Of a stretch of 64,000 nt of DNA, positions 24,296-34,296 are shown one piece after another. The stretch is from Bacillota bacterium. Its GTDB lineage: Bacteria; Bacillota; Clostridia; Acetivibrionales; DTU013. The translations under genes and the position numbers were made by a program. The notes beneath the pieces were generated by a model. It saw nothing but the letters and a program-made list of their open reading frames with translations, ran no database searches and was not told the origin of the DNA. Location: the NCBI GenBank assembly GCA_023399355.1, contig JAEWQC010000276.1, positions 1,714 through 65,713 on the forward strand, in the 5' to 3' direction. How positions within the stretch are numbered: position 1 is the stretch's first letter; the number at the start of each line of letters is the position of its first letter.

Positions 24296-24362
24296 TGGAA
24301 CCGGTGAGGGGAATTGAACCTCCAACCACCGGTTGATGGAGGTACAGTCGGCATTCCCAACC
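24296..24362 (-). pseudogene. Degenerate tRNA 3' remnant
   Basis: Minus strand ends ...GGAGGUUCAAUUCCCCUCACCGGUUCCA (T-arm-like, CCA end). About 75 percent identical over 40 nt to the tRNA-Thr-like repeat at 32441/34125. No pairing 5' acceptor strand and no clean D or anticodon arm. Confidence 0.5.
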
Positions 24363-24528
24363 AGAGCAGAGGCAGAAGATTTCACTGCTTTTGAATACAT
24401 AGCCAGAGCAAAGGCAGAAGATTTCTCTGCCTTTGCGTACATAACCAGAGCAAAGACAGAAGGTTTCCCAGCGTTTGAATACATAGCCAGAGCAAAGGCA
24501 GAAGATTTCTCTGCCTTTGCGTACATAA
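24361..24528. repeat. Four tandem 42-bp repeats, each built around a hairpin
   Basis: Units at 24361, 24403, 24445 and 24487. Units 2 and 4 are identical (CCAGAGCAAAGGCAGAAGATTTCTCTGCCTTTGCGTACATAA) and contain a perfect 11-bp stem GCAAAGGCAGA/TCTGCCTTTGC with a 7-nt loop. Units 1 and 3 are diverged copies, so the array can also be read as 84 bp x 2. Confidence 0.9.
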
Positions 24529-24610
24529 CATTGTACTATTAACCGATAGCCATACTCCCTCCCCGAAGCGGCAAGATGTCACAAAGTGCGAGAGTGTATC
24601 ACCCCTTAAC

Positions 24611-27154
24611 TCATACAAACCAAATCGGTGCGGTAATTGCGGCATAATCCGTATACTGTTCTGTTTTTACTACAATAAACATATATTTTGCCTGTTTGAT
24701 TTCATCACTGTCCAGGATAAAATTATTTTTATTCCAGCTGTTCTCCTGTTCCGCAACTGAAATAACAGTGTTGTCGGTATGGAGCTCAACTGCAGTTATC
24801 ATACCGTTGCATTCAGCAAATGTGAGATCAAGATAATAGCAATCATCCTTCTCCAAATCACTACCCATAACGGCGGTTGTGCCGCCTGTGTTAGTAAGGC
24901 TGAAGGCTATGCCGAAATCGTGATATCTTATGGCATATACCCTGCGCTGTTTAACAGCTGCCAGAACACAGTCTTTTGAGGATGCTTCAGCCGCAACGAC
25001 AGTCCTGATATCAAAATAACTGTTCCGCAACACACAGAAGCAGTCATGGTTGTCGCTGGTGGCTGTAGGCGCTACCTTCCAGCCGTTGGCCAGAGCCAGT
25101 TCATATGAATCCACCCAGGTTTTTGTACTGCTTCCATCCGCCGATTTGGAAAACACCTCGATAAGCTTAAAGGGTGTCCTGTCATATTCTGCTCCTGCTG
25201 CCTCCGTGAAATAATTAAACCCGTTTCCCGATCCGGGATGATTGAATTGAATAACAAGATCCGGATTATTGCCATATTCCTTTGCCGCCCACCGGTAAAA
25301 GTCCTCTCTGGTATCGGGAGTATTGGCCCATCCGTCGGGCTGCCCATAATATATCTGGTCGGTTCCGAACACATTGTAATGAGCAGTCGTATCGGCGGGA
25401 TCGTCAGTATGGTCCGCCTCAAGCATGGCTACACCACCCAGACTGTATTCGTAACCGGCAAAGGATGAAAAATTCAAATTATGTTCATATTTGTCGGCAT
25501 AATTTTTAGTGTCCTCCCATTGATCCCGGGAAAGAGCGTACTTCTTACCCACAACCTTTGGGCTGCCATCCGTATATCTGTCGCTACCGTCGGCCCACTT
25601 TCCGAAAACATGGTCTGAGATACCATCGAAATCATATCCCAAGGCCTGATAAATACTGAAGGTATCAGACGGATCATAGATGTACCTGTTCAGAGGTATG
25701 CCGATACTGTCGGTTTCCCCTCCCCAAAATGCATCACTCCAGAGGGTATGGTTGTGCAGGTCGCCCTTCAGGAATATTAGCCCGTCGTAACCCCTGACGC
25801 CGGAAGCGCTGTGATGTGGCGTATAGCTGCTGATCGTTATTGAACTCGTCGTATCATTGAACAAGTGTTCATCCAACGTTTTGTGAGAAGACTTTACGTT
25901 TAAATCAAAGAAGCCGGGACCGTAAATAGTCATAGAATCGCCGGAATTGGAGGCATCCTTAAATAATTCGGCCTTTAAATTCCCTGTAATGATAACTGTT
26001 GAAAGCTCATCATTTCCAACACTGCCCATCCTGCCGCAAACATTATTTGAATACCAGCTGTTATAATCGGACTTTCCCGGATCCGTACGCATGACATATT
26101 CTCCGGTATAGCCGCCATTGTTGAAAAGATATACGGCAGGAAAATCGAGATCAATTACCCGGATTGAGGAAATATTTGCAGTACCGGATAAGGTAAAACT
26201 CTGATCATTATTCCGGGCGACCAGTATCCGGCTGTTACCCGTATAATCCGTATCCTCGAATAAATGCACTATATAGCCGGCTTTGACCGTAATTGAAGTG
26301 ATGCTGTCATCCAGATCATACCTGCTGAGCTTGGGAACACTTGTCGTAAGGTTCTCAGCAGTGCTGCTGCTTTCAACTCTGACTGCATAGCAGCCGTCCG
26401 CCACCAGGATGGAAAGGCCGGCGTTATTGACGCGCGTAATGTCACATGGGCCTTTATATTTTTTTGAATCTCCCGTACAATCGGGTGAATCGAATACTTC
26501 CACCGAATAACCCGGATTTACCTTAAAAGACAAAAAACCGTCCGTAAAGTCCGAATAGCCTGCAGCATTGAACGAACCTTTACTAAGCTGTATGGAACTA
26601 CCTTTATAATTCATTTTGGAATATACATATACTCCAAATTCATAATGCACCGAAACAGAAGAAAATTTGTCATTCCAGCTATCGCCTACATCGGATGTTT
26701 TAGCTTGGTATGTATGGCTGTCCCCGCTAAAGTCGTAATCGGTGTAGAATGTGAGGTCGTAGCCTGGCATGACCCAAATTGAACTTATTTTATCATTATA
26801 AAAGCCGGTATTTTTGAAGCTGTCGATATCGCCGTCTACTACCATCGAACTGCCCGAATAGCCGGGATCCGTGTAAATTATGGCTGCGCAGCGTGTATAG
26901 GTCCTTATGGAAGACATCCCGTAATTCCATTCATCGGAAAGGTTATTGTAGGTCCCGGCCTCAAATACCTTTCTGTTCCCGCCGAAATCGCTATCCTGAA
27001 ATACAACTGCATAGCAGCCCTCTGCAACCACCATCGACTTAACATTATCATTAATGCCTGCACTGCTTAAATGTGAATAATTCTCGCCGGTTGTTATTGT
27101 CACCGACTTACCACTTAGATTTACCTCCGGGTATAGTTTTACTGCCGTACTCAT
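24611..27154 (-). CDS. Beta/gamma-crystallin-like Greek-key repeat protein fused to a C-terminal PHP-domain metallohydrolase (CehA/McbA-like)
   Basis: Start set at the ATG at 27154 (MSTAVKLYPE...) with GGAGAG RBS. The N-terminal ~470 aa carry about 8-9 units of the type (Y/F)xDxx(Y/F)xGxS...(D/N)xxSS(I/V). The C-terminal part has PHP-like metal motifs GDLHNHTLWSD, QFNHPGSG and TATSDNHD. No signal peptide seen. Confidence 0.6.
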   Translation of the reverse strand: MSTAVKLYPEVNLSGKSVTITTGENYSHLSSAGINDNVKSMVVAEGCYAVVFQDSDFGGNRKVFEAGTYNNLSDEWNYGMSSIRTYTRCAAIIYTDPGYSGSSMVVDGDIDSFKNTGFYNDKISSIWVMPGYDLTFYTDYDFSGDSHTYQAKTSDVGDSWNDKFSSVSVHYEFGVYVYSKMNYKGSSIQLSKGSFNAAGYSDFTDGFLSFKVNPGYSVEVFDSPDCTGDSKKYKGPCDITRVNNAGLSILVADGCYAVRVESSSTAENLTTSVPKLSRYDLDDSITSITVKAGYIVHLFEDTDYTGNSRILVARNNDQSFTLSGTANISSIRVIDLDFPAVYLFNNGGYTGEYVMRTDPGKSDYNSWYSNNVCGRMGSVGNDELSTVIITGNLKAELFKDASNSGDSMTIYGPGFFDLNVKSSHKTLDEHLFNDTTSSITISSYTPHHSASGVRGYDGLIFLKGDLHNHTLWSDAFWGGETDSIGIPLNRYIYDPSDTFSIYQALGYDFDGISDHVFGKWADGSDRYTDGSPKVVGKKYALSRDQWEDTKNYADKYEHNLNFSSFAGYEYSLGGVAMLEADHTDDPADTTAHYNVFGTDQIYYGQPDGWANTPDTREDFYRWAAKEYGNNPDLVIQFNHPGSGNGFNYFTEAAGAEYDRTPFKLIEVFSKSADGSSTKTWVDSYELALANGWKVAPTATSDNHDCFCVLRNSYFDIRTVVAAEASSKDCVLAAVKQRRVYAIRYHDFGIAFSLTNTGGTTAVMGSDLEKDDCYYLDLTFAECNGMITAVELHTDNTVISVAEQENSWNKNNFILDSDEIKQAKYMFIVVKTEQYTDYAAITAPIWFV

Positions 27155-27448
27155 AAAATCCTCTCCTTTATTGTTTACTGAATATCGATATCTTTTCCTG
27201 CAGACTTTTACCACCAGTCCTCGTATCAAATCAGCAAAGAATCATTGATAAACTCTATATTTATATTTGGGAGCGGATATTTTATGCTATATGTGAAAAA
27301 AAAGGGGTTGTGCGTAAAGGTGACTTCTTTTGTCCTTCGGGTCACGGTTGAAGTTGGAGAAATATGCCAGTCTTAATGAAAAGCATATATAATTTTAAGC
27401 TATGGTTAAGCTACTAAACCGAAGGATGGCGCTTGAACCATACAAAAA

Positions 27449-28138
27449 TTGTGTGAATTAATTGAAAAGCTGGAAGACCAACGCAGCAAAAAAGTTATGT
27501 TCATTTCTCACTGCTTGTTAAATACCAATACCAGATATTTGGTCGGAGCTTTCAGGCGTGGTTCTGTAGAGGAAATAATCTATGATGTATTGAAGGAAGG
27601 AGTGGGTATAGTACAGATGAAATGCCCTGAACAATGGGCATGGGGTGGAGTATTGAGAAAAATCCTTTTGATTGTATTTGATGCAAAATGGACTTTTCCC
27701 CGCGATATTAAACCTCTATTAATTAAGCTGTTTATAGCCTATACTCGAATAACTTATAAAAAATTGGCAAACGAGACCTTCAAAATGATATGTGATCACA
27801 TTAAATCCGGGTACAAAATAATGGGGATTATAGGCGTAGATGGATCGTCTTCTTGTGGAGTAACAACAATATTGGATATCAGGAAGGTATTTGATTATTT
27901 TGTCTGTCAAGATATAAAAACATTGAATAAAGATGAATTTAATAGAGAGCTTTATGAAAATTGTACAGCTACTGGAAGGGGTATATTGTGTCCGGATCTT
28001 TTTACTAAGCCATTCTTCAAACATCACGAGGCTTCCTTTATCTTTGCCCGATTCATCCTTGCGGTCAATACTTCGTCTATGGATACTAATAATATTCTTT
28101 TCGGCATCAGATTGAAGTGCTGTCAGGGATTTTATTGA
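27449..28138 (+). CDS. DUF523/TudS-related protein (putative), GTG start, atypical C-terminus
   Basis: 229 aa. Blocks VMFISHCLLNTNTRY and GIVQMKCPEQWAWGG resemble TudS-like Cys-rich proteins. The last ~45 aa look non-homologous, so a 3' rearrangement is possible. Confidence 0.3.
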   Translation: MCELIEKLEDQRSKKVMFISHCLLNTNTRYLVGAFRRGSVEEIIYDVLKEGVGIVQMKCPEQWAWGGVLRKILLIVFDAKWTFPRDIKPLLIKLFIAYTRITYKKLANETFKMICDHIKSGYKIMGIIGVDGSSSCGVTTILDIRKVFDYFVCQDIKTLNKDEFNRELYENCTATGRGILCPDLFTKPFFKHHEASFIFARFILAVNTSSMDTNNILFGIRLKCCQGFY

Positions 28139-28186
28139 AATGAGAGCGGAGAAAAAAAGATTCCTCCTCTTTTTGCAGCTTAAAAT

Positions 28187-29368
28187 TTAATCTTTGGGAT
28201 AAGCCGGTTGACTGACTCCTATTGCATCGTTTATATCCAGGTTTGGAACCGAGAAATTATCCAGAAGTATGAAGTATTTCACCAATGCCAGGTATTTTCT
28301 GTTACTCCGATCCCTCGAATTCTCTTTGAGATTGTTTTCGTATTTTTCGTATTCGGAGTCGATTTTATTCATAAGATTTTTGTCATTCTTCGCTTGTTCA
28401 TAAATAAAATTCTCGAACCTCCTTTTTAGGTAATACATCAGCCTTTTACCAGCAAGCTTATTACCGTTTAATTCAAGATAACTTTTATAATTTGGCTTCA
28501 CTTGTGACACGTCAAACTTGCACAGTTTTGCCCAGATCAAAGCCTCGAACTGGTACATGAATTTTTCAATAACAGCCTCGGAGTCATAGCTTTGTAATGA
28601 AAGCTTATTGAAATCATACATGATTACGTCCTTATAAATTTGATATTCCTCACAAGTAAGATCTTCGAAGCGTAAAACGAATTCAAGCGCAAAGGTATCA
28701 TTGTTTATCGCCTCACGGAAGCCCGACACATACCCCTGTACAGATTTCAGCAGGCTGACGCCGGGCGAATTGGTTGCCTCCGACAGGTTTATACCGCCAA
28801 AGTATTCCTTATCCCTCAATTCTGTTCTCAGCATATTGGCTGCTTTTCCGGCTGCTACAGTATTCTCGGTATTAAAATCTCCATTCATAAGCTTTTTGCA
28901 ATACTGTCGATATTTTAAATACTCACTCATTTCACCGATTGCCAACTTTTCCTCATTGATTAACTCCCTAAATTCTTTCAAATTACTTTTTGTTGAAGGA
29001 CTGACGTTTTTATTCAACTTTATCAGACCTGCAATACTGTTTCTTTTAGCCTGGCCAGGAATTATAAGCTCAGTAAGCATTCTGCTTCTCAAAAATGAGG
29101 ACAAGACTGCTTTTGTTGCCAGTCGTACAAGCTGTCCTGCCAGAGATGATTCAAGGATAAAGCAAATGAAAAGGTCTACGATCAGATTGCTTGTATTAGT
29201 TTCCGGACCGTCTTCAAGCAATTCGATTCTTTTGTCCTGAACTTGCTCCGCGGCTAAAACAACTGCATCAAGAATGTCCTGCAGACGCTGCAGCTTAATT
29301 TGTGTTGCATATTTCAAGTAAAATATCAGCTCTTCCCGTTCAAGTGTACTGGGTTTATCACTCATCAA
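28187..29368 (-). CDS. Hypothetical protein, second gene of a two-gene operon
   Basis: 393 aa, largely helical-looking and Lys/Glu-rich. No motif recognised by eye. Its start lies 15 nt after the stop of the 902-aa gene. Confidence 0.6.
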   Translation of the reverse strand: MMSDKPSTLEREELIFYLKYATQIKLQRLQDILDAVVLAAEQVQDKRIELLEDGPETNTSNLIVDLFICFILESSLAGQLVRLATKAVLSSFLRSRMLTELIIPGQAKRNSIAGLIKLNKNVSPSTKSNLKEFRELINEEKLAIGEMSEYLKYRQYCKKLMNGDFNTENTVAAGKAANMLRTELRDKEYFGGINLSEATNSPGVSLLKSVQGYVSGFREAINNDTFALEFVLRFEDLTCEEYQIYKDVIMYDFNKLSLQSYDSEAVIEKFMYQFEALIWAKLCKFDVSQVKPNYKSYLELNGNKLAGKRLMYYLKRRFENFIYEQAKNDKNLMNKIDSEYEKYENNLKENSRDRSNRKYLALVKYFILLDNFSVPNLDINDAIGVSQPAYPKD

Positions 29369-29383
29369 TGCATACCCCGCTTC

Positions 29384-32092
29384 TTATGAAAAATCCGGCA
29401 GGGTCGAGTTTTCCTGAAGCATAACCAGAGAAGTCGGGACGGTTATCTCCCACTCTTCACCTGTAAGCATGTCAGGTTCAACTATATCTGCCTGGGCCTT
29501 CAGCTCTGCAGCAATAGAAACAAACAGCTCGTCATCCATGACAGGAGCCTCACCGCCAGCCCATATTTCAGCTGTATTCATGTAATGCAGTATAGCAGTT
29601 TCATACCCTTCCTTAACCGGTAGTATTACTCTGGCTGTTCCGGCCTGCAGAAATTTTTTGAAGATTGGATCAGGATCATTAAAGCATATATCCCTAATCC
29701 AGTTCTCACGTCTGCCCCAGAAATAAGGATAAAAAAGGTAGGTCATCTGCTCCCATTCATATGCTTGTTCAAAAAACTGTATCTCATTGCAGTTATTATT
29801 CAATGCCGGCTTGTCGATTTCCGGATATTTATCATCTACGCCTGAATCAACTTTTGAAGCCTCGGTCATAAAATTGTTGTTTAGAAGATCTCTGCGCAGA
29901 AGGTTGATGCAGGATTTTTTAAGTTCTAATTTTTCAATGCTTCTATTATCCACAGGATTATTGCCCTGGATTACGACAGTGTTTTCCAGCTCGATCCGGG
30001 CTTTAAGCTCGTTATAGTCCGCTTTGAGCTTCTTGTAAGCACTGATTATCGACTGATAAGTTTTGAGCTGCCACTCCGTGAATATGCTATCAATCCTCTT
30101 ACACTTGACCGTAACTGTTACGTACACATGCCAGCAGTTTACGCCATACAAAATGACGGGTATATTCCTGTCGATAACATTATCCATTGTTACAGTCCAG
30201 GAGCTGCTTTGATCAGAAACGCTGTGCTGACCAACCCATATGCTCCAATATGGAGTATCCCTTGTACGGTCATAAGGTCCTGATGGTGCGGCTGCTCCTT
30301 TAACCCGGAACTCTATGGCATTATATCCTTCGGGTACCTCTATTTTGCTTGTTATATTAACTTTGCGGTTGTCACCCAAATCTATTTCGTCCGTATTGTT
30401 CTTGCTGGGACAGGCCAGGATCACCGACGTTTCGACGAACTCTTCCGGAGGTATGGCTGCATCGGAAACTTCATACCTTTTTACATAACTGACATAGTTG
30501 TTCTGATCAAGTTCCAGAGGATCCAGTTTGTTTCCGCTGTTAACCGGACTCATAGGCAGGGTTGGCTCATCCATTTCCAACCCCTTTACCGGCTTGTTAC
30601 TCAAAGAGTGGATGTAAAAAGCTGCAGGCTCCGGGATGATGAATTCGTACATGAGGCGCTTGCCATAGTTTACTACCTGAGCTTTATAAAGCTTGTCAAG
30701 CCACCTATACATACCGATTACATGTCCGCTGCCGTTTTTATTATCAAAGCCGTGGGTATTGGTCTCCTCAACCTCTTCTAAGGTTTTCTGTGAACGTTCC
30801 TCCCTTACACGTTCACAGATTTTTGAGATCGATCGTGAAATGATTTCTTTTGAATAATTGCTTGATACTCTATCCGATTCTGTTTTGGATTCATTTAATG
30901 CAAAATTGGTATCTGCCTGTATTTGAACTGTGGGTCCATAGGAAGCGGAAACGCTTAAACCTGCGTCAAACTTGATGTCTTCACTAATCGTTTTCTCTGT
31001 TTCTTTCTGGAGCTCGAACCTCTCAGTGCTTTGCAGGTCTTTTTCAGTTTCGGTACTGGTTTCGGTCTCCGAAAAATAGGATTCTTCTGTCCTGTTTAAG
31101 CGTCTGTGTTTTCTTTCCCTGAATTCACTTTTCATAACATTCTCAACATGGGCTATCTCTCCCATTTTATATTTGACCAGTTTTTGTTTTACAACCTTCA
31201 GATCTCCGAAGCCTATAGGGTGCATATAGGGAGTAGAAGGAAATACCCCGTCACTGGACCGGTATTTCCGGTAGGAGGTATCTTTGATGATGCCGGGGAA
31301 AAATTCTTTAGGCACGAGAGGAGAAGCATTCACATATTGCTTTAAGCTGAAGGCTGAGATGATTTTTGAAACGGATTCAAGTATATTAAGAACCTTTAAT
31401 GTCATAATTACCTTTTCTCTAAGTTCAGGGTAGGAGGCTGAGTCTGCCGAGAGTGCATAAAGCAGTTCCCAAAGAAGGTTTCTCAAAGTGTTGTTGTACT
31501 CTCCTCCTTCAACCTTTTGATCAAACATTTCTATAAAGCCCTGTACAGAACTCTTTATGGTAACGGCACAAGGCCTTATGGTTATAATGGGTTTTGGCCT
31601 TATATCCATTGCTTTTTTCCTACCTCTAAAGAGTCTGATAATAAATAACAACAGGCTTGTAAAAAAAGATATATTTGCTGCATCAGGCTCAGGCCTTTGG
31701 GGTTGGTCTACTGGAGGGGTGTACAAATCGGGACTGATGATAGAGTTTATACCTTGAATGAATTTAGCCATATTAAAGCTGCCAAGCTGAGATTTGAAAA
31801 AGAGCCAGAGCTGTTCCACCTTGTAGTCTATTTCCGGATTTTCGGAAAATGCTGACCTGTCTTCGACAAATTGCTTTGAGATCCGCTTTGCTTCATATAA
31901 GTTCTCTTTTGATCCAATACTGTTGATAAGCTTTAGAATCTCCAACTGTTTTTTTTCATGTGTTATATCGCCTGAATATACACCGGGTTTTCTTGCAAAA
32001 AACCGGACCCCCTTCTCGAGCGTAGAAACCTTTTGGGGAGGGCGAATAGCCATAAATTTGAAGACATTGATCGGTTCTGTTCCACTGCTCAT
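29384..32092 (-). CDS. Large hypothetical protein, first gene of a two-gene operon
   Basis: 902 aa uninterrupted ORF. One hydrophobic stretch (FFTSLLLFIIRLF), a charged Glu/Thr/Lys-rich region, and blocks HVIGMYRWLDKLYKAQVVNYGKRLMYEFIIPEPAAFY and YLFYPYFWGRRENW. No Walker A, HExxH or nuclease motif spotted by eye. Confidence 0.65.
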   Translation of the reverse strand: MSSGTEPINVFKFMAIRPPQKVSTLEKGVRFFARKPGVYSGDITHEKKQLEILKLINSIGSKENLYEAKRISKQFVEDRSAFSENPEIDYKVEQLWLFFKSQLGSFNMAKFIQGINSIISPDLYTPPVDQPQRPEPDAANISFFTSLLLFIIRLFRGRKKAMDIRPKPIITIRPCAVTIKSSVQGFIEMFDQKVEGGEYNNTLRNLLWELLYALSADSASYPELREKVIMTLKVLNILESVSKIISAFSLKQYVNASPLVPKEFFPGIIKDTSYRKYRSSDGVFPSTPYMHPIGFGDLKVVKQKLVKYKMGEIAHVENVMKSEFRERKHRRLNRTEESYFSETETSTETEKDLQSTERFELQKETEKTISEDIKFDAGLSVSASYGPTVQIQADTNFALNESKTESDRVSSNYSKEIISRSISKICERVREERSQKTLEEVEETNTHGFDNKNGSGHVIGMYRWLDKLYKAQVVNYGKRLMYEFIIPEPAAFYIHSLSNKPVKGLEMDEPTLPMSPVNSGNKLDPLELDQNNYVSYVKRYEVSDAAIPPEEFVETSVILACPSKNNTDEIDLGDNRKVNITSKIEVPEGYNAIEFRVKGAAAPSGPYDRTRDTPYWSIWVGQHSVSDQSSSWTVTMDNVIDRNIPVILYGVNCWHVYVTVTVKCKRIDSIFTEWQLKTYQSIISAYKKLKADYNELKARIELENTVVIQGNNPVDNRSIEKLELKKSCINLLRRDLLNNNFMTEASKVDSGVDDKYPEIDKPALNNNCNEIQFFEQAYEWEQMTYLFYPYFWGRRENWIRDICFNDPDPIFKKFLQAGTARVILPVKEGYETAILHYMNTAEIWAGGEAPVMDDELFVSIAAELKAQADIVEPDMLTGEEWEITVPTSLVMLQENSTLPDFS

Positions 32093-32206
32093 ACTCTCAT
32101 TCCTTTCATTGAGTCATTTTTACTGATAATAATTCTTCATTTTATGGTATAATCCTTTAATTATATTAATAATTATGTAATTTTGTATTCTAAATGGTAA
32201 AACTCC

Positions 32207-32236
32207 GATCATTTTGTTGACCTCAGCAAAATGATC
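32207..32236. repeat. Hairpin motif copy A (GATCATTTTGTTGACCTCAGCAAAATGATC)
   Basis: Perfect 10-bp inverted arms. 24 of the 25 nt ATCATTTTGTTGACCTCA(G/A)CAAAAT recur at 32502-32525. Confidence 0.8.
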
Positions 32237-32401: not shown

Positions 32402-32436
32402 AAAATCCTTAGAACCACTAGAATTCCAAGGATTTC
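32402..32436 (-). terminator. Intrinsic terminator following the tRNA 3' fragment
   Basis: Minus strand: AAAUCCUUGGAA-UUCUAGUGG-UUCUAAGGAUUU followed by a U-run. Homologous to the terminator at 24252-24287. Confidence 0.55.
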
Positions 32437-32440
32437 ATTT

Positions 32441-32482
32441 CATTGGAGCTGGTGAAAGGAATCGAACCTTCAACCTGCGGTT
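32441..32482 (-). repeat. 42-bp direct repeat copy 1: displaced tRNA-Thr-like 3' end (att-like scar)
   Basis: CATTGGAGCTGGTGAAAGGAATCGAACCTTCAACCTGCGGTT is identical to 34125-34166. On the minus strand it corresponds to the variable loop, T-arm, 3' acceptor strand and CCA of a tRNA. Confidence 0.85.
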
Positions 32483-32501: not shown

Positions 32502-32525
32502 ATCATTTTGTTGACCTCAACAAAA
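32502..32525. repeat. Hairpin motif copy B (ATCATTTTGTTGACCTCAACAAAAT)
   Basis: 9-bp stem ATTTTGTTG/CAACAAAAT with loop ACCT. Copy of the motif at 32207. Lies immediately inside the mini-island, next to the tRNA fragment. Confidence 0.75.
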
Positions 32526-32569
32526 TATTTAGGAATTCTGCAAGTGGTACCTGCAGTTTTATCCTACTT

Positions 32570-33258: not shown

Positions 33259-33778
33259 TTAAGTTACAATAACAAATTTGTTATAAAAGGCATAGAACTC
33301 CCGCGTCAGATTGCTGTTTTTATCATAATCATAGCTGCATTGTTCGAAAACGTCAGCAATCTTCTGGTAAGCTCTCCGCTCACTGGCTCGAATCTCACGG
33401 ATACGTTCCAGCAATTCATCGAAGTAATCCTTGCCAAAAGGATGACCATTTTTAAGTAGTTCATCATTCAAAATAAAGCCTTTTTGAATATATTCATGCA
33501 GAGTTTTTGTCGCCTACTGGCGGAATCTTGTGGCTTTTCATTGAATTAACACGATACCCAACAGCGATAATTGCATCAAGGTTAAAGAAATCTATTAATC
33601 TTGAAACCTCACGGTTACCTTCAATTTGAACTTGTGCAAATTTTGCACAAGTTGAATTCTTGTCTAATTCTTCCTCCTCATAGATATTGGAAAGATGCTT
33701 TGCTATAACACTCCGCTCAGTTTCAAACAGATCCGCTTTATATAGAGCAATTATTTTCTCTGTGTTTTTCATGAGCAC
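33259..33778 (-). pseudogene. RhuM-family (virulence protein RhuM-like) pseudogene
   Basis: The two track ORFs (33494-33778 and 33259-33471) match consecutive RhuM blocks (DRSVIAKHLSNIYEEEELD, NLDAIIAVGYRVNS, then NDELLKNGHPFGKDYFDELLERIREIRASERR). My re-translation between them gives ATRFRQ*ATKTLHEYIQKGF, a TAG at the conserved Trp of FRxWAT plus a frameshift. The 3' part of the gene is missing. Confidence 0.7.
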
Positions 33779-33801: not shown

Positions 33802-33987
33802 TTATCGTTGTGTTTTTTTCGCTTTCTTAGTTCGCCCATCTATCGGTTTTTCCGCATCCTTCGGAATAGCCCAAACATGACCGAGGCGATAGGCTCCGGG
33901 GATACGGCCTTTATCGCAGAGCACTTCGACCATGCGCTGTGTAAGGCCCCATTCTAATGCTTTATCCTTCGGGGTAACATAATCCAT
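33802..33987 (-). CDS. Small helix-turn-helix DNA-binding protein (excisionase/MerR-like)
   Basis: 61 aa. KALEWGLTQRMVEVLCDKGRIPGAYRLGHVWAIP is typical of HTH_17-type small DNA-binding proteins found on mobile elements. Confidence 0.55.
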   Translation of the reverse strand: MDYVTPKDKALEWGLTQRMVEVLCDKGRIPGAYRLGHVWAIPKDAEKPIDGRTKKAKKTQR

Positions 33988-34118: not shown

Positions 34119-34127
34119 CCTTTCCAT

Positions 34128-34197
34128 TGGAGCTGGTGAAAGGAATCGAACCTTCAACCTGCGGTTTACGATACTGCTGCTCAGCCTTTGAGCCACA
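34128..34197 (-). pseudogene. tRNA-Thr(CGU)-like gene lacking a pairing 5' acceptor strand
   Basis: The minus strand shows D-arm GCUC-AAAGGCU-GAGC, anticodon loop AUCGUAA (CGU), T-arm GAAGG-UUCGAUU-CCUUU and 3' CACCAGC-U-CCA. The 5' strand reads UGCAGUG where GCUGGUG is required, so only 3 of 7 acceptor pairs form. Confidence 0.55.
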
Positions 34198-34296
34198 CTG
34201 CATCTACATATGAGGGCGGGACATCCGACTTCGACTTTATTATAATAAAACTGCTATGAAATTCAGCCTACTTTATTAACAACCCCCGGCCTCTGT

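What the first reader, a model, noticed from the sequence alone, without database searches (positions are those of the whole stretch)
28187..32092. AT-rich two-gene operon (902 aa + 393 aa) with no recognisable domains next to TA genes and tRNA scars: candidate novel defence or toxin system
Seen: two long uninterrupted minus-strand ORFs are separated by 15 nt. They are preceded by about 350 bp of AT-rich non-coding DNA containing a 30-bp perfect hairpin. By eye the region is more AT-rich than the flanks. The large protein has one hydrophobic stretch, a highly charged E/T/K-rich segment and two conserved-looking blocks: GHVIGMYRWLDKLYKAQVVNYGKRLMYEFIIPEPAAF and YLFYPYFWGRRENWI. I see no P-loop, nuclease, protease or HTH motif in either protein. 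Context: it sits between a tRNA remnant (24.3 kb) and a tRNA-flanked TA mini-island (32.4 kb). Inference: size, operon structure, island context and lack of assignable function fit an uncharacterised defence, abortive-infection or toxin-delivery module.
Basis: partly seen in the sequence, partly recalled or inferred. Interest (0 to 1): 0.65.

Follow-up and report, generated by a model that had tools for sequence, protein, structure and literature searches.

The report
Unannotated pore-like protein with swappable partner
The two genes form a real operon, and its large protein belongs to a big, never-described family found across bacteria and some archaea that is almost always followed by an interchangeable, often toxin-like partner gene, which points to a new two-part membrane-attacking weapon or cell-suicide module.

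Summary
Two minus-strand ORFs (902 aa and 392/393 aa) are 15-18 nt apart, with a promoter-like site and hairpin upstream and a terminator-like site downstream. The tRNA scars and TA genes beside them are real. The AT-richness is only marginal. Neither protein matches Pfam, NCBIfam, PADLOC, PHROGs, PDB sequences or PDB/BFVD folds.

The large protein is not an orphan. At least 902 protein clusters and 458 GTDB species, spanning more than 12 bacterial phyla plus Methanoperedens and a haloarchaeal plasmid, carry a homolog. In about three quarters of 79 loci a tightly coupled gene follows it. These partners fall into at least 12 unrelated families, including PAD, patatin, PLD, Het-C-like, Pre-toxin-TG (one with CdiA_C), metallophosphoesterase, PhoD and amine oxidase. 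The window's partner belongs to an all-alpha family of 262 clusters.

The large protein's conserved core carries a family-wide amphipathic beta-hairpin with a Tyr-Gly-Pro turn, flanked by polar alternating strands. It also has a variable beta-sandwich and no signal peptide. No secretion system, consistent immunity gene, phage linkage or defence-island enrichment accompanies the pair.

Best reading (confidence about 0.4): a new binary module in which a pore- or translocon-forming subunit works with a swappable effector. Whether it targets other cells or the producer itself (abortive infection) is unresolved.

The parts
29384..32092 (-). Large gene, 902 aa. Member of a widespread, unannotated family of about 800-1150 aa; the conserved subunit of the module.
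   Evidence: ORF. At least 902 homologous clusters. 458 GTDB species. No Pfam, NCBIfam, PADLOC or PDB hit. AF2 model has pLDDT 69. No full-length fold match.
32033..32071 (-). Conserved extreme N-terminal motif (residues 8-20, INVFKFMAIRPPQ; family consensus FKFVAxRPP).
   Evidence: Alignment A1. Majority fraction 0.63, against 0.22 for the rest of the N-terminal domain. Predicted beta-strand 8-16. Its role is unknown.
30632..31225 (-). Conserved beta-hairpin core (residues 290-487): long paired strands flanking a T/E/K-rich alternating segment.
   Evidence: AF2 strands 290-320/323-347 and 425-449/457-487; pLDDT is high only for about 290-320 and 450-487 and below 50 for 336-445. Majority fraction 0.58-0.71.
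30896..30976 (-). Amphipathic beta-hairpin (residues 373-399, IKFDAGLSVSASYGPTVQIQADTNFAL) with a conserved Y385-G386-P387 turn; candidate membrane-inserting hairpin.
   Evidence: Column-mean hydropathy alternates with period 2 on both sides of the turn in all 40 members. G386 is invariant, Y385 is Y in 37/40 and P387 is P in 28/40. The beta-moment windows at 373 and 389 are in the top 0.5% and 1.5% of the protein.
30095..30439 (-). Variable beta-sandwich (jelly-roll-like) domain, residues 552-666; candidate ligand- or receptor-binding domain.
   Evidence: It is the only part with fold matches (FlhE, BMV/CCMV capsid, Eph ligand-binding domain, GOLD, PirA, Ena3A; E of 7e-4 or weaker). It is the least conserved part of the core (0.31).
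29387..29812 (-). Conserved C-terminal alpha/beta domain (residues 761-902), including the YLFYPYFWGRRENWI block.
   Evidence: Majority fraction 0.65 with many invariant residues. No fold or sequence match.
28187..29368 (-). Partner gene, 392 aa from the ATG at 29365 (393 aa from the TTG at 29368). All-alpha protein of a 262-cluster family.
   Evidence: ORF. Exhaustive profile search found 262 clusters at E<=1e-3. AF2 model has pLDDT 79 and pTM 0.80, all helices. No significant fold match. Relatives sit directly after genuine large-protein homologs in L002, L008, L085, L087, L088 and L089.
29201..29254 (-). Conserved N-terminal motif of the partner (residues 38-55, AAEQVQDKRIELLEDGPE) on a 44-residue helix; candidate docking module.
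   Evidence: Invariant in alignments A2 and A3 from a Bacillota-like MAG to Streptomyces, FCPU426 and Methanoperedens. Several relatives share only residues of about 26-95.
29063..29185 (-). Hydrophobic helical segment of the partner (residues 61-101; FxLESxxAG), the most hydrophobic 19-residue window in the protein.
   Evidence: Kyte-Doolittle maximum of 1.82 at residues 62-80. Helices 61-72 and 78-101. Conserved F69, L71, E72 and G77.
32172..32236 (-). Promoter-like site (-35 TTTACC, -10 CATAAT, 32201-32172) overlapped by the 30-nt hairpin/palindrome (32207-32236).
   Evidence: The consensus-scan count is not above shuffles, so this is a position-based suggestion only.
32505..32526 (.). Second copy of the palindrome ATTTTGTTGA-CC-TCAACAAAAT, just downstream of the HTH_3 antitoxin gene. 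Together with 32211-32232 these are the only two copies in the window.
   Evidence: 0.01 expected by chance. Function unknown; it could be an operator.
28148..28167 (-). Terminator-like hairpin with a T-run, 20 nt after the partner's stop codon.
32441..32482 (-). tRNA 3'-half fragment, a 42-nt exact direct repeat of 34125-34166, followed by a terminator hairpin (32402-32436). It marks the boundary between the TA/RhuM mini-island and the operon.

Best explanation
The operon encodes one instance of a widespread, previously undescribed two-component conflict module. The conserved protein of about 900-1000 aa is the constant, membrane-acting subunit. I infer that it oligomerises and inserts its conserved amphipathic beta-hairpin (Tyr-Gly-Pro turn, flanked by long polar alternating strands) to build a beta-barrel pore or translocon, and that its variable beta-sandwich acts as the target-binding domain. 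The gene next to it encodes a swappable effector. In other genomes this is a phospholipase (patatin, PLD, Het-C-like), a protein-arginine deiminase, a nuclease-type toxin (PT-TG/CdiA_C, PD-(D/E)xK-like), a phosphoesterase or an amine oxidase. In this window it is a 392-aa all-helical protein with a conserved N-terminal docking-like helix and a hydrophobic helix, so it is probably membrane-active itself. The pair would work like a binary (A-B) toxin in which B opens or crosses a membrane and A does the damage. Shown: the family, its spread, the gene linkage, the partner polymorphism, the hairpin's sequence pattern, and the lack of known domains. Inferred: oligomerisation, pore formation, a physical A-B interaction, and the target (another cell versus the producer's own membrane).
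For: (1) The operon is real and translationally coupled. (2) The family is large and cross-phylum: at least 902 clusters and 458 species. (3) A tightly linked adjacent gene is present in about 60 of 79 loci. These partners fall into at least 12 unrelated families carrying PAD, Patatin, PLDc_2, PT-TG, PT-TG+CdiA_C, Het-C (weak), Metallophos, PhoD and Amino_oxidase domains. An unrelated ~385-aa family has a PD-(D/E)xK-like motif. (4) Linkage holds from the partner's side as well: L085, L087, L088 and L089. (5) No other gene recurs within +/-8 kb, so the module is self-contained. (6) The amphipathic period-2 hairpin at 373-399 is conserved in 40/40 members and ranks in the top 0.5-1.5% for beta-moment. 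The AF2 model places it at the tip of long beta-hairpins. (7) The beta-sandwich is the variable part of an otherwise conserved core and resembles ligand-binding jelly rolls. (8) A second class of ~910-930-aa proteins, not related by BLAST, is paired with AAEQVQD-type partners and has the same kind of central T/E-rich segment with a Gly/Ser-rich amphipathic hairpin. (9) The partner model is confident and all-alpha, with a hydrophobic helix.
Against: No fold or sequence similarity to any known pore-former or translocase. The hairpin region is modelled at pLDDT below 50, so the extended beta-ribbon is a prediction from the sequence pattern. None of the 40 large proteins has a signal peptide, the listed partners show none either (by eye), and no secretion or lysis genes are linked, so there is no export route for an offensive toxin. 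Predicted nuclease partners usually lack an adjacent immunity gene, which is atypical for interbacterial toxins. The window's own partner has no enzymatic domain and no fold match. There are no experimental data.
Confidence: 0.4

Rival explanations
1. An intracellular anti-phage or abortive-infection (programmed cell death) system. The large cytoplasmic protein senses infection through its variable N-terminal or beta-sandwich domain. It then activates or releases the adjacent effector, or perforates the producer's own membrane from inside as bacterial gasdermins do, killing the cell before phage release.
For: No signal peptides, and the family occurs in monoderms, diderms and archaea alike. 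No secretion system is linked. Usually there is no immunity gene even next to nuclease-type partners, which fits effectors that are held inactive. The effector palette (patatin, PLD, nuclease, phosphoesterase, helical/hydrophobic protein) overlaps that of CBASS, Lamassu and Avs-type systems (the comparison is my own knowledge). Some loci sit next to conflict genes: Trypco1/Trypsin-VMAP-C/AAA_5/NB-ARC in S. paradoxus, a SAM-cyclase-AAA_16-TPR protein and an integrase in Mesorhizobium, and TA genes and tRNA scars in the window. The distribution is patchy and accessory, and includes plasmids.
Against: Neither protein hits PADLOC. Of 123 flanking ORFs from 40 loci, only about 3-5 match defence models (two group II intron RTs and 2-3 TIR proteins), and no defence family recurs. 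There are no hits in 50,697 phage genomes and only 1 in IMG/VR. PT-TG, CdiA_C, PAD, Het-C and amine-oxidase partners are typical of exported toxins, not of Abi effectors (Zhang et al. 2012, PMC3482391, listed). A sensor under phage pressure would not be expected to stay 35-45% identical between archaea and bacteria.
Confidence: 0.3
2. A non-conflict function: the large protein is a structural or scaffolding protein (for example cell-envelope or developmental), and the adjacent enzymes are physiological partners in lipid or protein modification.
For: Strong conservation of the core and C-terminal domain across phyla. Cytoplasmic prediction. Several partners (PhoD, metallophosphoesterase, amine oxidase, PAD) also have metabolic relatives.
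Against: The distribution is patchy and accessory (458 of 185,579 species by a strict pattern) and the genomic context varies. Partner families are unrelated and swapped even between closely related large proteins: the nearest neighbour shares the partner family in only 37/56 cases. Dedicated toxin modules are present (PT-TG, CdiA_C).
Confidence: 0.12
3. Cargo of a mobile element: a phage structural or tail-like protein, or an island maintenance function tied to the neighbouring toxin-antitoxin pair.
For: The beta-sandwich weakly resembles viral jelly rolls and phage tail-fibre domains. tRNA scars, TA genes and RhuM fragments lie next to the operon. There is a weak PHROG hit (E 0.025).
Against: No homolog in 50,697 phage genomes. 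No phage genes recur near homologs. The att-like repeats enclose the TA/RhuM segment, not the operon. No integrase domain appeared in the Pfam-annotated genes within 10 kb either side. Composition is not foreign.
Confidence: 0.03

Closest known systems
Binary A-B toxins with a beta-barrel translocase (anthrax PA with LF/EF; C2-II/C2-I, iota Ib/Ia, Vip1/Vip2)
   Same: Two separate adjacent genes, with a large B subunit and an enzymatic A subunit. B carries an amphipathic beta-hairpin flanked by long alternating polar strands, plus a beta-sandwich binding domain. The same B could serve different A payloads.
   Different: No sequence or fold similarity (no PA14 or Binary_toxB hit). No Sec signal peptide. 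The A partners are far more diverse and unrelated to each other. The family occurs in archaea and in many non-pathogenic environmental phyla. Oligomerisation and translocation are untested.
Polymorphic toxin systems (Zhang, Aravind et al. 2012, PMC3482391)
   Same: A constant component is combined with recombining toxin modules. PT-TG, CdiA_C and Het-C-type domains occur among the partners. The partner family has a conserved N-terminal module with divergent remainders.
   Different: The toxin is a separate gene, not the C-terminus of the conserved protein. No known trafficking domain or secretion system is linked. Usually no immunity gene follows.
Tc (ABC) toxin complexes
   Same: No signal peptides, polymorphic payloads without immunity genes, presence in both Gram-positive and Gram-negative bacteria, and a large translocator subunit. 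These features of Tc toxins are from my own knowledge.
   Different: TcA is about 2500 aa with an alpha-helical channel, and the payload is fused to an RHS cocoon. There are no VRP1, TcA or RHS hits here and no structural match.
Abortive-infection systems with swappable effectors (CBASS, Lamassu, Avs) and bacterial gasdermins
   Same: A conserved core gene with an interchangeable effector (patatin, nuclease, phosphoesterase, membrane protein). A cytoplasmic pore-former without a signal peptide, as in gasdermins.
   Different: No cyclase, SMC, STAND or protease component. No PADLOC hit. No defence-island enrichment. No gasdermin fold match.
Aerolysin / ETX-MTX2-type beta-pore-forming toxins
   Same: An amphipathic insertion hairpin flanked by Ser/Thr-rich polar tracts, and very long beta-strands in the model.
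   Different: No fold match in PDB. About three times larger, with extra helical and alpha/beta domains. No signal peptide.

Membership tests
Binary toxin B components (PA/C2-II/Ib/Vip1) | Sequence or fold homology to PA14/Binary_toxB domains | tested here: not met
   No Pfam hit for the protein or for any of 40 family members. No PDB sequence or fold match.
Binary toxin B components (PA/C2-II/Ib/Vip1) | Secreted via an N-terminal signal peptide | tested here: not met
   0 of 40 members have a hydrophobic N-terminal window. This is a hydropathy proxy, not SignalP.
Binary toxin B components (PA/C2-II/Ib/Vip1) | Amphipathic membrane-insertion beta-hairpin flanked by alternating polar strands | tested here: met
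   Period-2 hydropathy at residues 373-399 around a conserved YGP turn in all 40 members; top 0.5-1.5% beta-moment. This is a sequence pattern only.
Binary toxin B components (PA/C2-II/Ib/Vip1) | Oligomeric pore that translocates a separately encoded enzyme | not testable with these tools
   Needs multimer modelling, cryo-EM or bilayer assays. Adjacent enzyme genes exist in homologous loci, but the window's partner has no enzyme domain.
Polymorphic toxin systems | Known toxin or pre-toxin domains in the variable component | tested here: met
   PT-TG, CdiA_C, Het-C (weak), PAD, patatin and PLD in partners at homologous loci. None in the window's own partner.
Polymorphic toxin systems | Toxin fused C-terminally to a conserved trafficking protein with a known secretion route | tested here: not met
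   The toxin is a separate gene. No T5/T6/T7/eCIS genes recur nearby.
Polymorphic toxin systems | Cognate immunity gene immediately downstream | tested here: not met
   Most of the 20 loci inspected have an opposite-strand or distant next gene. There are only sporadic candidates (L048, L011, L012, L079). In the window a terminator and a convergent gene follow.
Known anti-phage defence systems (PADLOC-DB v2.0.0) | HMM match to a catalogued defence protein | tested here: not met
   No hit for the large protein. Only a non-significant HEC-03A hit (E 0.094) for the partner. The Bt-plasmid homologs gave no hit either.
Known anti-phage defence systems (PADLOC-DB v2.0.0) | Enrichment next to known defence genes (defence islands) | tested here: inconclusive
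   Only a few of 123 flanking ORFs from 40 loci match defence models. However, only +/-2 genes were sampled, ORF calling was crude and there was no matched control. Individual loci do sit beside conflict genes.
Tc toxins | TcA (VRP1/TcA domains) plus an RHS cocoon | tested here: not met
   No Pfam or fold hits.
Bacterial gasdermin systems | Gasdermin fold plus an adjacent activating protease | tested here: not met
   No gasdermin match. The partners are not proteases.
tRNA-integrated genomic island | Element bounded by direct repeats of a tRNA 3' end, with an integrase | tested here: not met
   The 42-nt exact repeats bound the TA/RhuM segment (32441-32482 and 34125-34166), not the operon. The 24.3-kb fragment is a different sequence. 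No integrase domain appears among the Pfam-annotated genes within 10 kb either side of the large gene.

The most novel reading that the evidence does not exclude
This is the founding example of a pan-prokaryotic class of self-contained binary modules. A conserved, signal-less protein of about 950 aa forms a beta-barrel pore or translocon of a new fold, and it is combined by gene shuffling with at least a dozen unrelated effector families (phospholipases, deiminase, nucleases, oxidase, helical membrane proteins). A second, sequence-unrelated class of large subunit uses the same partner docking module.
Probability: 0.35. Interest if true: 0.85.

Novelty: new variant of a known kind. Interest (0 to 1): 0.68.

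Why it matters
If the model is right, hundreds of species from more than a dozen phyla and two archaeal lineages share an unrecognised membrane-attack device with a plug-in payload. It would be a new pore-former or translocase fold. It would assign a role to two sizeable families of hypothetical proteins (at least 902 and 262 clusters). It would also give a genomic handle for finding new effector enzymes, since whatever sits next to the large gene becomes a candidate toxin. Finally, it offers a possible protein-delivery scaffold whose natural modularity suggests it could be engineered. Even if the mechanism is wrong, the linkage of a conserved gene to a polymorphic toxin-like partner is a robust and testable observation.

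Tried and rejected
(1) Family libraries (Pfam, NCBIfam, PADLOC, PHROGs), PDB sequence search with a single sequence and with a profile, and a per-member Pfam scan of 40 homologs all gave nothing.

(2) Foldseek of the large-protein model against PDB and BFVD matched only the beta-sandwich to generic jelly rolls. Foldseek of the confident partner model gave nothing significant; ClyA, Hbl-B and AhlB appear only at probability below 0.1 and are not claimed.

(3) I looked for a shared N-terminal adaptor among the different partner families. None was visible. The partner HMM hits only L002 and L008 among the 80 loci. hhalign of the AAEQVQD family against the ~385-aa family gave probability 0.1%.

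(4) I asked whether the variable N-terminal domain of the large protein co-varies with partner type. The result was no better than for the core (33/56 against 37/56 nearest neighbours), so it is inconclusive.

(5) I tested homology between the large protein and the ~910-aa protein upstream of the Streptomyces partner. BLAST gave E 0.008 and hhalign gave probability 27%, both only over the central hairpin. I treat this as suggestive analogy, not homology.

(6) I looked for recurring neighbours (secretion systems, eCIS, lysis cassettes, immunity genes) and found none.

(7) Foreign-DNA signature: GC and codon usage are not distinctive.

(8) Literature: six searches, including accession numbers and motif strings, found no description of either family. 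The 2026 PT-TG survey (PMC13483458) links its PT-TG proteins without trafficking domains to T7SSb, not to this module.

Full report
OBSERVATION. The large one is 29384..32092 (902 aa, ATG start). The small one is 28187..29368 (393 aa from a TTG start; the gene call on the source contig uses the ATG at 29365, giving 392 aa). The large gene's TAA stop is followed by GAAGCGGGGTATGCA-TTG-ATG, which is a G-rich ribosome-binding site and a gap of 15-18 nt. A promoter-like -35/-10 pair (32201-32172) is overlapped by a 30-nt hairpin (32207-32236), which has a 13-bp stem including one G.T pair and a 4-nt loop. A terminator-like hairpin (28167-28148) follows the small gene. The two quoted sequence blocks sit at residues 456-492 and 785-799. 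The AT-richness is marginal. The operon has GC 0.413 against 0.433 for the window. The large gene is within 1 SD of the 32 long ORFs, the small gene is about 2 SD low, and codon usage is unremarkable. Only the 477-bp upstream spacer is clearly AT-rich, at 0.317.

THE tRNA SCARS ARE REAL. ARAGORN sees no tRNA near the operon. However, tRNA 3'-end motifs occur at 24303-24320, 32451-32468 and 34135-34152, where 0 are expected by chance. Rfam scores 34136-34198 as tRNA at 38.5 bits. A 42-nt exact direct repeat (32441-32482 = 34125-34166) brackets the Gp49/HTH_3 toxin-antitoxin pair, two RhuM fragments and a small HTH gene. That bracketed segment is the tRNA-flanked mini-island. The operon lies outside it, and the 24.3-kb fragment has a different sequence. 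The tRNA context therefore marks a recombination-prone neighbourhood, but it does not delimit the operon as an island.

NO KNOWN DOMAINS. Neither protein has a significant hit in Pfam, NCBIfam, PADLOC or PHROGs, or in PDB by sequence. A profile of 40 homologs also finds nothing in PDB, and no Pfam family recurs among the 40 members.

THE LARGE PROTEIN BELONGS TO A BIG, CROSS-PHYLUM FAMILY. At least 902 clusters match it. They are typically 800-1150 aa, every named one is called 'hypothetical', and they share 33-53% identity over residues of about 290-902. A pattern scan of one genome per GTDB species finds 458 species with a relative. These include Bacillota, Actinomycetota, Chloroflexota, Cyanobacteria, Bacteroidota, Pseudomonadota (including Legionella, Lysobacter and rhizobia), Acidobacteriota, Verrucomicrobiota, Fibrobacterota and several candidate phyla, plus the archaeon Methanoperedens. 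Fifteen plasmids also carry it, including B. thuringiensis HD-771 p01 and a Natronorubrum megaplasmid. It is absent from 50,697 phage genomes, and only one IMG/VR contig has it. Conservation is uneven. The extreme N-terminal motif FKFVAxRPP, the hairpin core (residues 290-487) and the C-terminal domain (761-902) are highly conserved. The N-terminal helical domain (21-255) and the beta-sandwich (552-666) are variable.

THE KEY RESULT IS A POLYMORPHIC PARTNER. In about 60 of 79 loci a same-strand ORF follows the large gene within 50 nt or less, often overlapping it. In a few loci the partner lies immediately upstream instead. These partners fall into at least 12 families that are unrelated by BLAST. 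Pfam assigns them as follows: protein-arginine deiminase (9 loci), a Het-C-like domain (weak hit; 8-11 loci), patatin (5-6), Pre-toxin TG (4-5), PT-TG with CdiA_C (1), PLD (3-4), calcineurin-like phosphoesterase, PhoD, and flavin amine oxidase. A ~385-aa family is found in Flavobacterium, Chimaeribacter, Catellatospora, the Bt plasmid and the IMG/VR contig. It has a (K/R)PD..LG...E-x-E/K motif suggestive of a PD-(D/E)xK nuclease, which is a motif-level inference, and it is unrelated to the window's partner (hhalign probability 0.1%). Apart from the large gene and its partner, no ORF family recurs within +/-8 kb. Closely related large proteins often have different partners: the nearest neighbour shares the partner family in only 37 of 56 cases.

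THE WINDOW'S OWN PARTNER. A word-indexed search found only five relatives. An exhaustive profile search found 262 clusters at 50% identity, of 340-470 aa. The family has an invariant AAEQVQDxRxxLLExGPE motif on a long N-terminal helix, followed by a hydrophobic FxLESxxAG helix. Relatives sit directly after genuine large-protein homologs in L002 (FCPU426), L008 (Methanoperedens), L085, L087, L088 and L089. Several relatives share only the N-terminal ~70-100 residues. In S. paradoxus (L086) and in L096, such proteins follow a different ~910-930-aa protein. That protein is not demonstrably homologous (BLAST E 0.008; hhalign probability 27%). It nevertheless has the same kind of central T/E-rich alternating segment with a Gly/Ser-rich amphipathic hairpin. 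The AF2 model of the partner is confident (pLDDT 79, pTM 0.80), all-alpha with 13 helices, and has no significant PDB match.

STRUCTURE OF THE LARGE PROTEIN. The AF2 model has pLDDT 69 and pTM 0.54. It shows an N-terminal helical domain, then very long beta-hairpins (290-320/323-347 and 425-449/457-487) that flank a low-confidence segment (336-445). After these come a beta-sandwich (552-666), two long helices, and a C-terminal alpha/beta domain. Only the beta-sandwich matches known folds, and those are generic jelly rolls at E of 7e-4 or weaker. Within the low-confidence segment, the family-averaged hydropathy alternates with period 2 over residues 373-399, on both sides of a Tyr385-Gly386-Pro387 turn. 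G386 is invariant, Y385 is Y in 37/40 members and P387 is P in 28/40. The hydrophobic face is M/V/A/V/V/A/Y on one strand and V/V/A/A/F/Y on the other. These are the strongest beta-amphipathic windows in the protein, in the top 0.5% and 1.5%. The flanks are Thr/Glu/Lys-rich alternating tracts. This arrangement is the sequence signature of membrane-insertion hairpins in beta-barrel pore-formers and translocases (PA, C2-II, the aerolysin family). That comparison rests on my general knowledge and is not a database match.

CONTEXT TESTS. None of the 40 family members has a signal-peptide-like N-terminus, and none was visible in the partners listed. No secretion, eCIS or lysis genes recur nearby. 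An immunity-like ORF after the partner is the exception rather than the rule. Of 123 flanking ORFs from 40 lower-GC loci, only a handful hit PADLOC models: two group II intron reverse transcriptases and 2-3 TIR proteins. Pfam shows no recurring neighbour family. Individual loci do lie next to conflict genes. The Bt plasmid copy lies beside a DUF6094 methyltransferase and an SNF2-type helicase.

INTERPRETATION. The firmly shown facts are as follows. There is a conserved large gene with a tightly coupled, frequently exchanged partner drawn from toxin or effector families. The pair has a patchy, HGT-like distribution and is self-contained as two genes. These facts identify a biological-conflict module. 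For mechanism, I commit to a binary pore/translocon-plus-effector model (confidence about 0.4), based on the conserved amphipathic hairpin, the variable binding-type beta-sandwich and the partner repertoire. The main rival (about 0.3) is an intracellular abortive-infection or cell-death system. It is favoured by the missing export signals and missing immunity genes. It is disfavoured by the lack of PADLOC hits, the lack of defence-island enrichment, and the presence of partner types characteristic of exported toxins. The two readings share the proposed membrane-attack chemistry and differ mainly in the target. A housekeeping or scaffold role (about 0.12) and a phage or island-maintenance role (about 0.03) are unlikely.

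LIMITS. The hairpin region is modelled at low confidence. ORF calling in the related loci was mechanical. The defence-neighbour sample was small and had no control. The signal-peptide check was a hydropathy proxy. No multimer modelling and no experiment was possible. The literature searches cover open-access text only.

Noticed in passing
window 24359-24529: A 42-nt unit repeated about 4 times (83% matches; also readable as 84 nt x 2) lies immediately next to the 24.3-kb tRNA 3' fragment, in non-coding DNA overlapped only by spurious ORFs. Its origin and function are unknown.
   Followed up: partly
window 34125-34198 and 32441-32482: Rfam recognises a tRNA-like element at 34136-34198 (38.5 bits) that ARAGORN misses, so it is probably a degraded tRNA. 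Its 3' 42 nt are repeated exactly at 32441-32482. The repeats bracket a 1.6-kb remnant island that holds the Gp49/HTH_3 TA pair, split RhuM fragments (33259-33471 and 33494-33778) and a small HTH_17-like gene (33802-33987).
   Followed up: yes
window 32211-32232 and 32505-32526: The palindrome ATTTTGTTGA-CC-TCA(A/G)CAAAAT occurs exactly twice in the 64-kb window. One copy overlaps the promoter-like site of the operon and the other lies just after the HTH_3 antitoxin gene. It could be an operator for that Xre-type regulator, which would link the TA module to control of the operon.
   Followed up: partly
window 24611-27229 (-): An 872-aa protein combines N-terminal beta/gamma-crystallin and Inhibitor_I36 repeats with a C-terminal CehA/McbA-type metallohydrolase domain. 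This is an unusual fusion.
   Followed up: no
window 27449-28138 (+): A TudS/CD3072-like desulfidase homolog matches only residues 13-144 of the 229-aa ORF and scores below the NCBIfam cut-off (76 against 130 bits). It may be a decayed or extended gene, and it is convergent with the operon.
   Followed up: no
window about 34.3-44 kb (L001 1-7800): A biosynthetic-looking cluster lies upstream. It contains a condensation-domain protein, a radical SAM/SPASM enzyme, a PP-binding carrier, a phosphopantetheinyl transferase and glycosyltransferases.
   Followed up: no
L086 5253-9101; L096 2838-6894: A second class of ~910-930-aa proteins, not related to the large protein by BLAST and lacking Pfam domains, is paired with proteins that carry the same AAEQVQD N-terminal module. 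They share a central T/E-rich segment with an amphipathic Gly/Ser-rich hairpin. In S. paradoxus the pair lies beside Trypco1, Trypsin-VMAP-C, AAA_5 and NB-ARC conflict genes.
   Followed up: partly
L043, L051 (Legionella parisiensis, L. anisa); L053, L055, L071: In these genomes the large-protein homolog appears as two ORFs (about 346-417 aa followed by about 594-642 aa, overlapping or adjacent). This could be a natural split gene, or a frameshift or pseudogene.
   Followed up: no
L099 5005-10160 (Chryseobacterium plasmid NZ_CP044508.1): Here the large-protein homolog is extended to 1268 aa, and an annotated patatin-like phospholipase gene lies immediately upstream instead of downstream. This shows that gene order in the module can be inverted.
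   Followed up: partly
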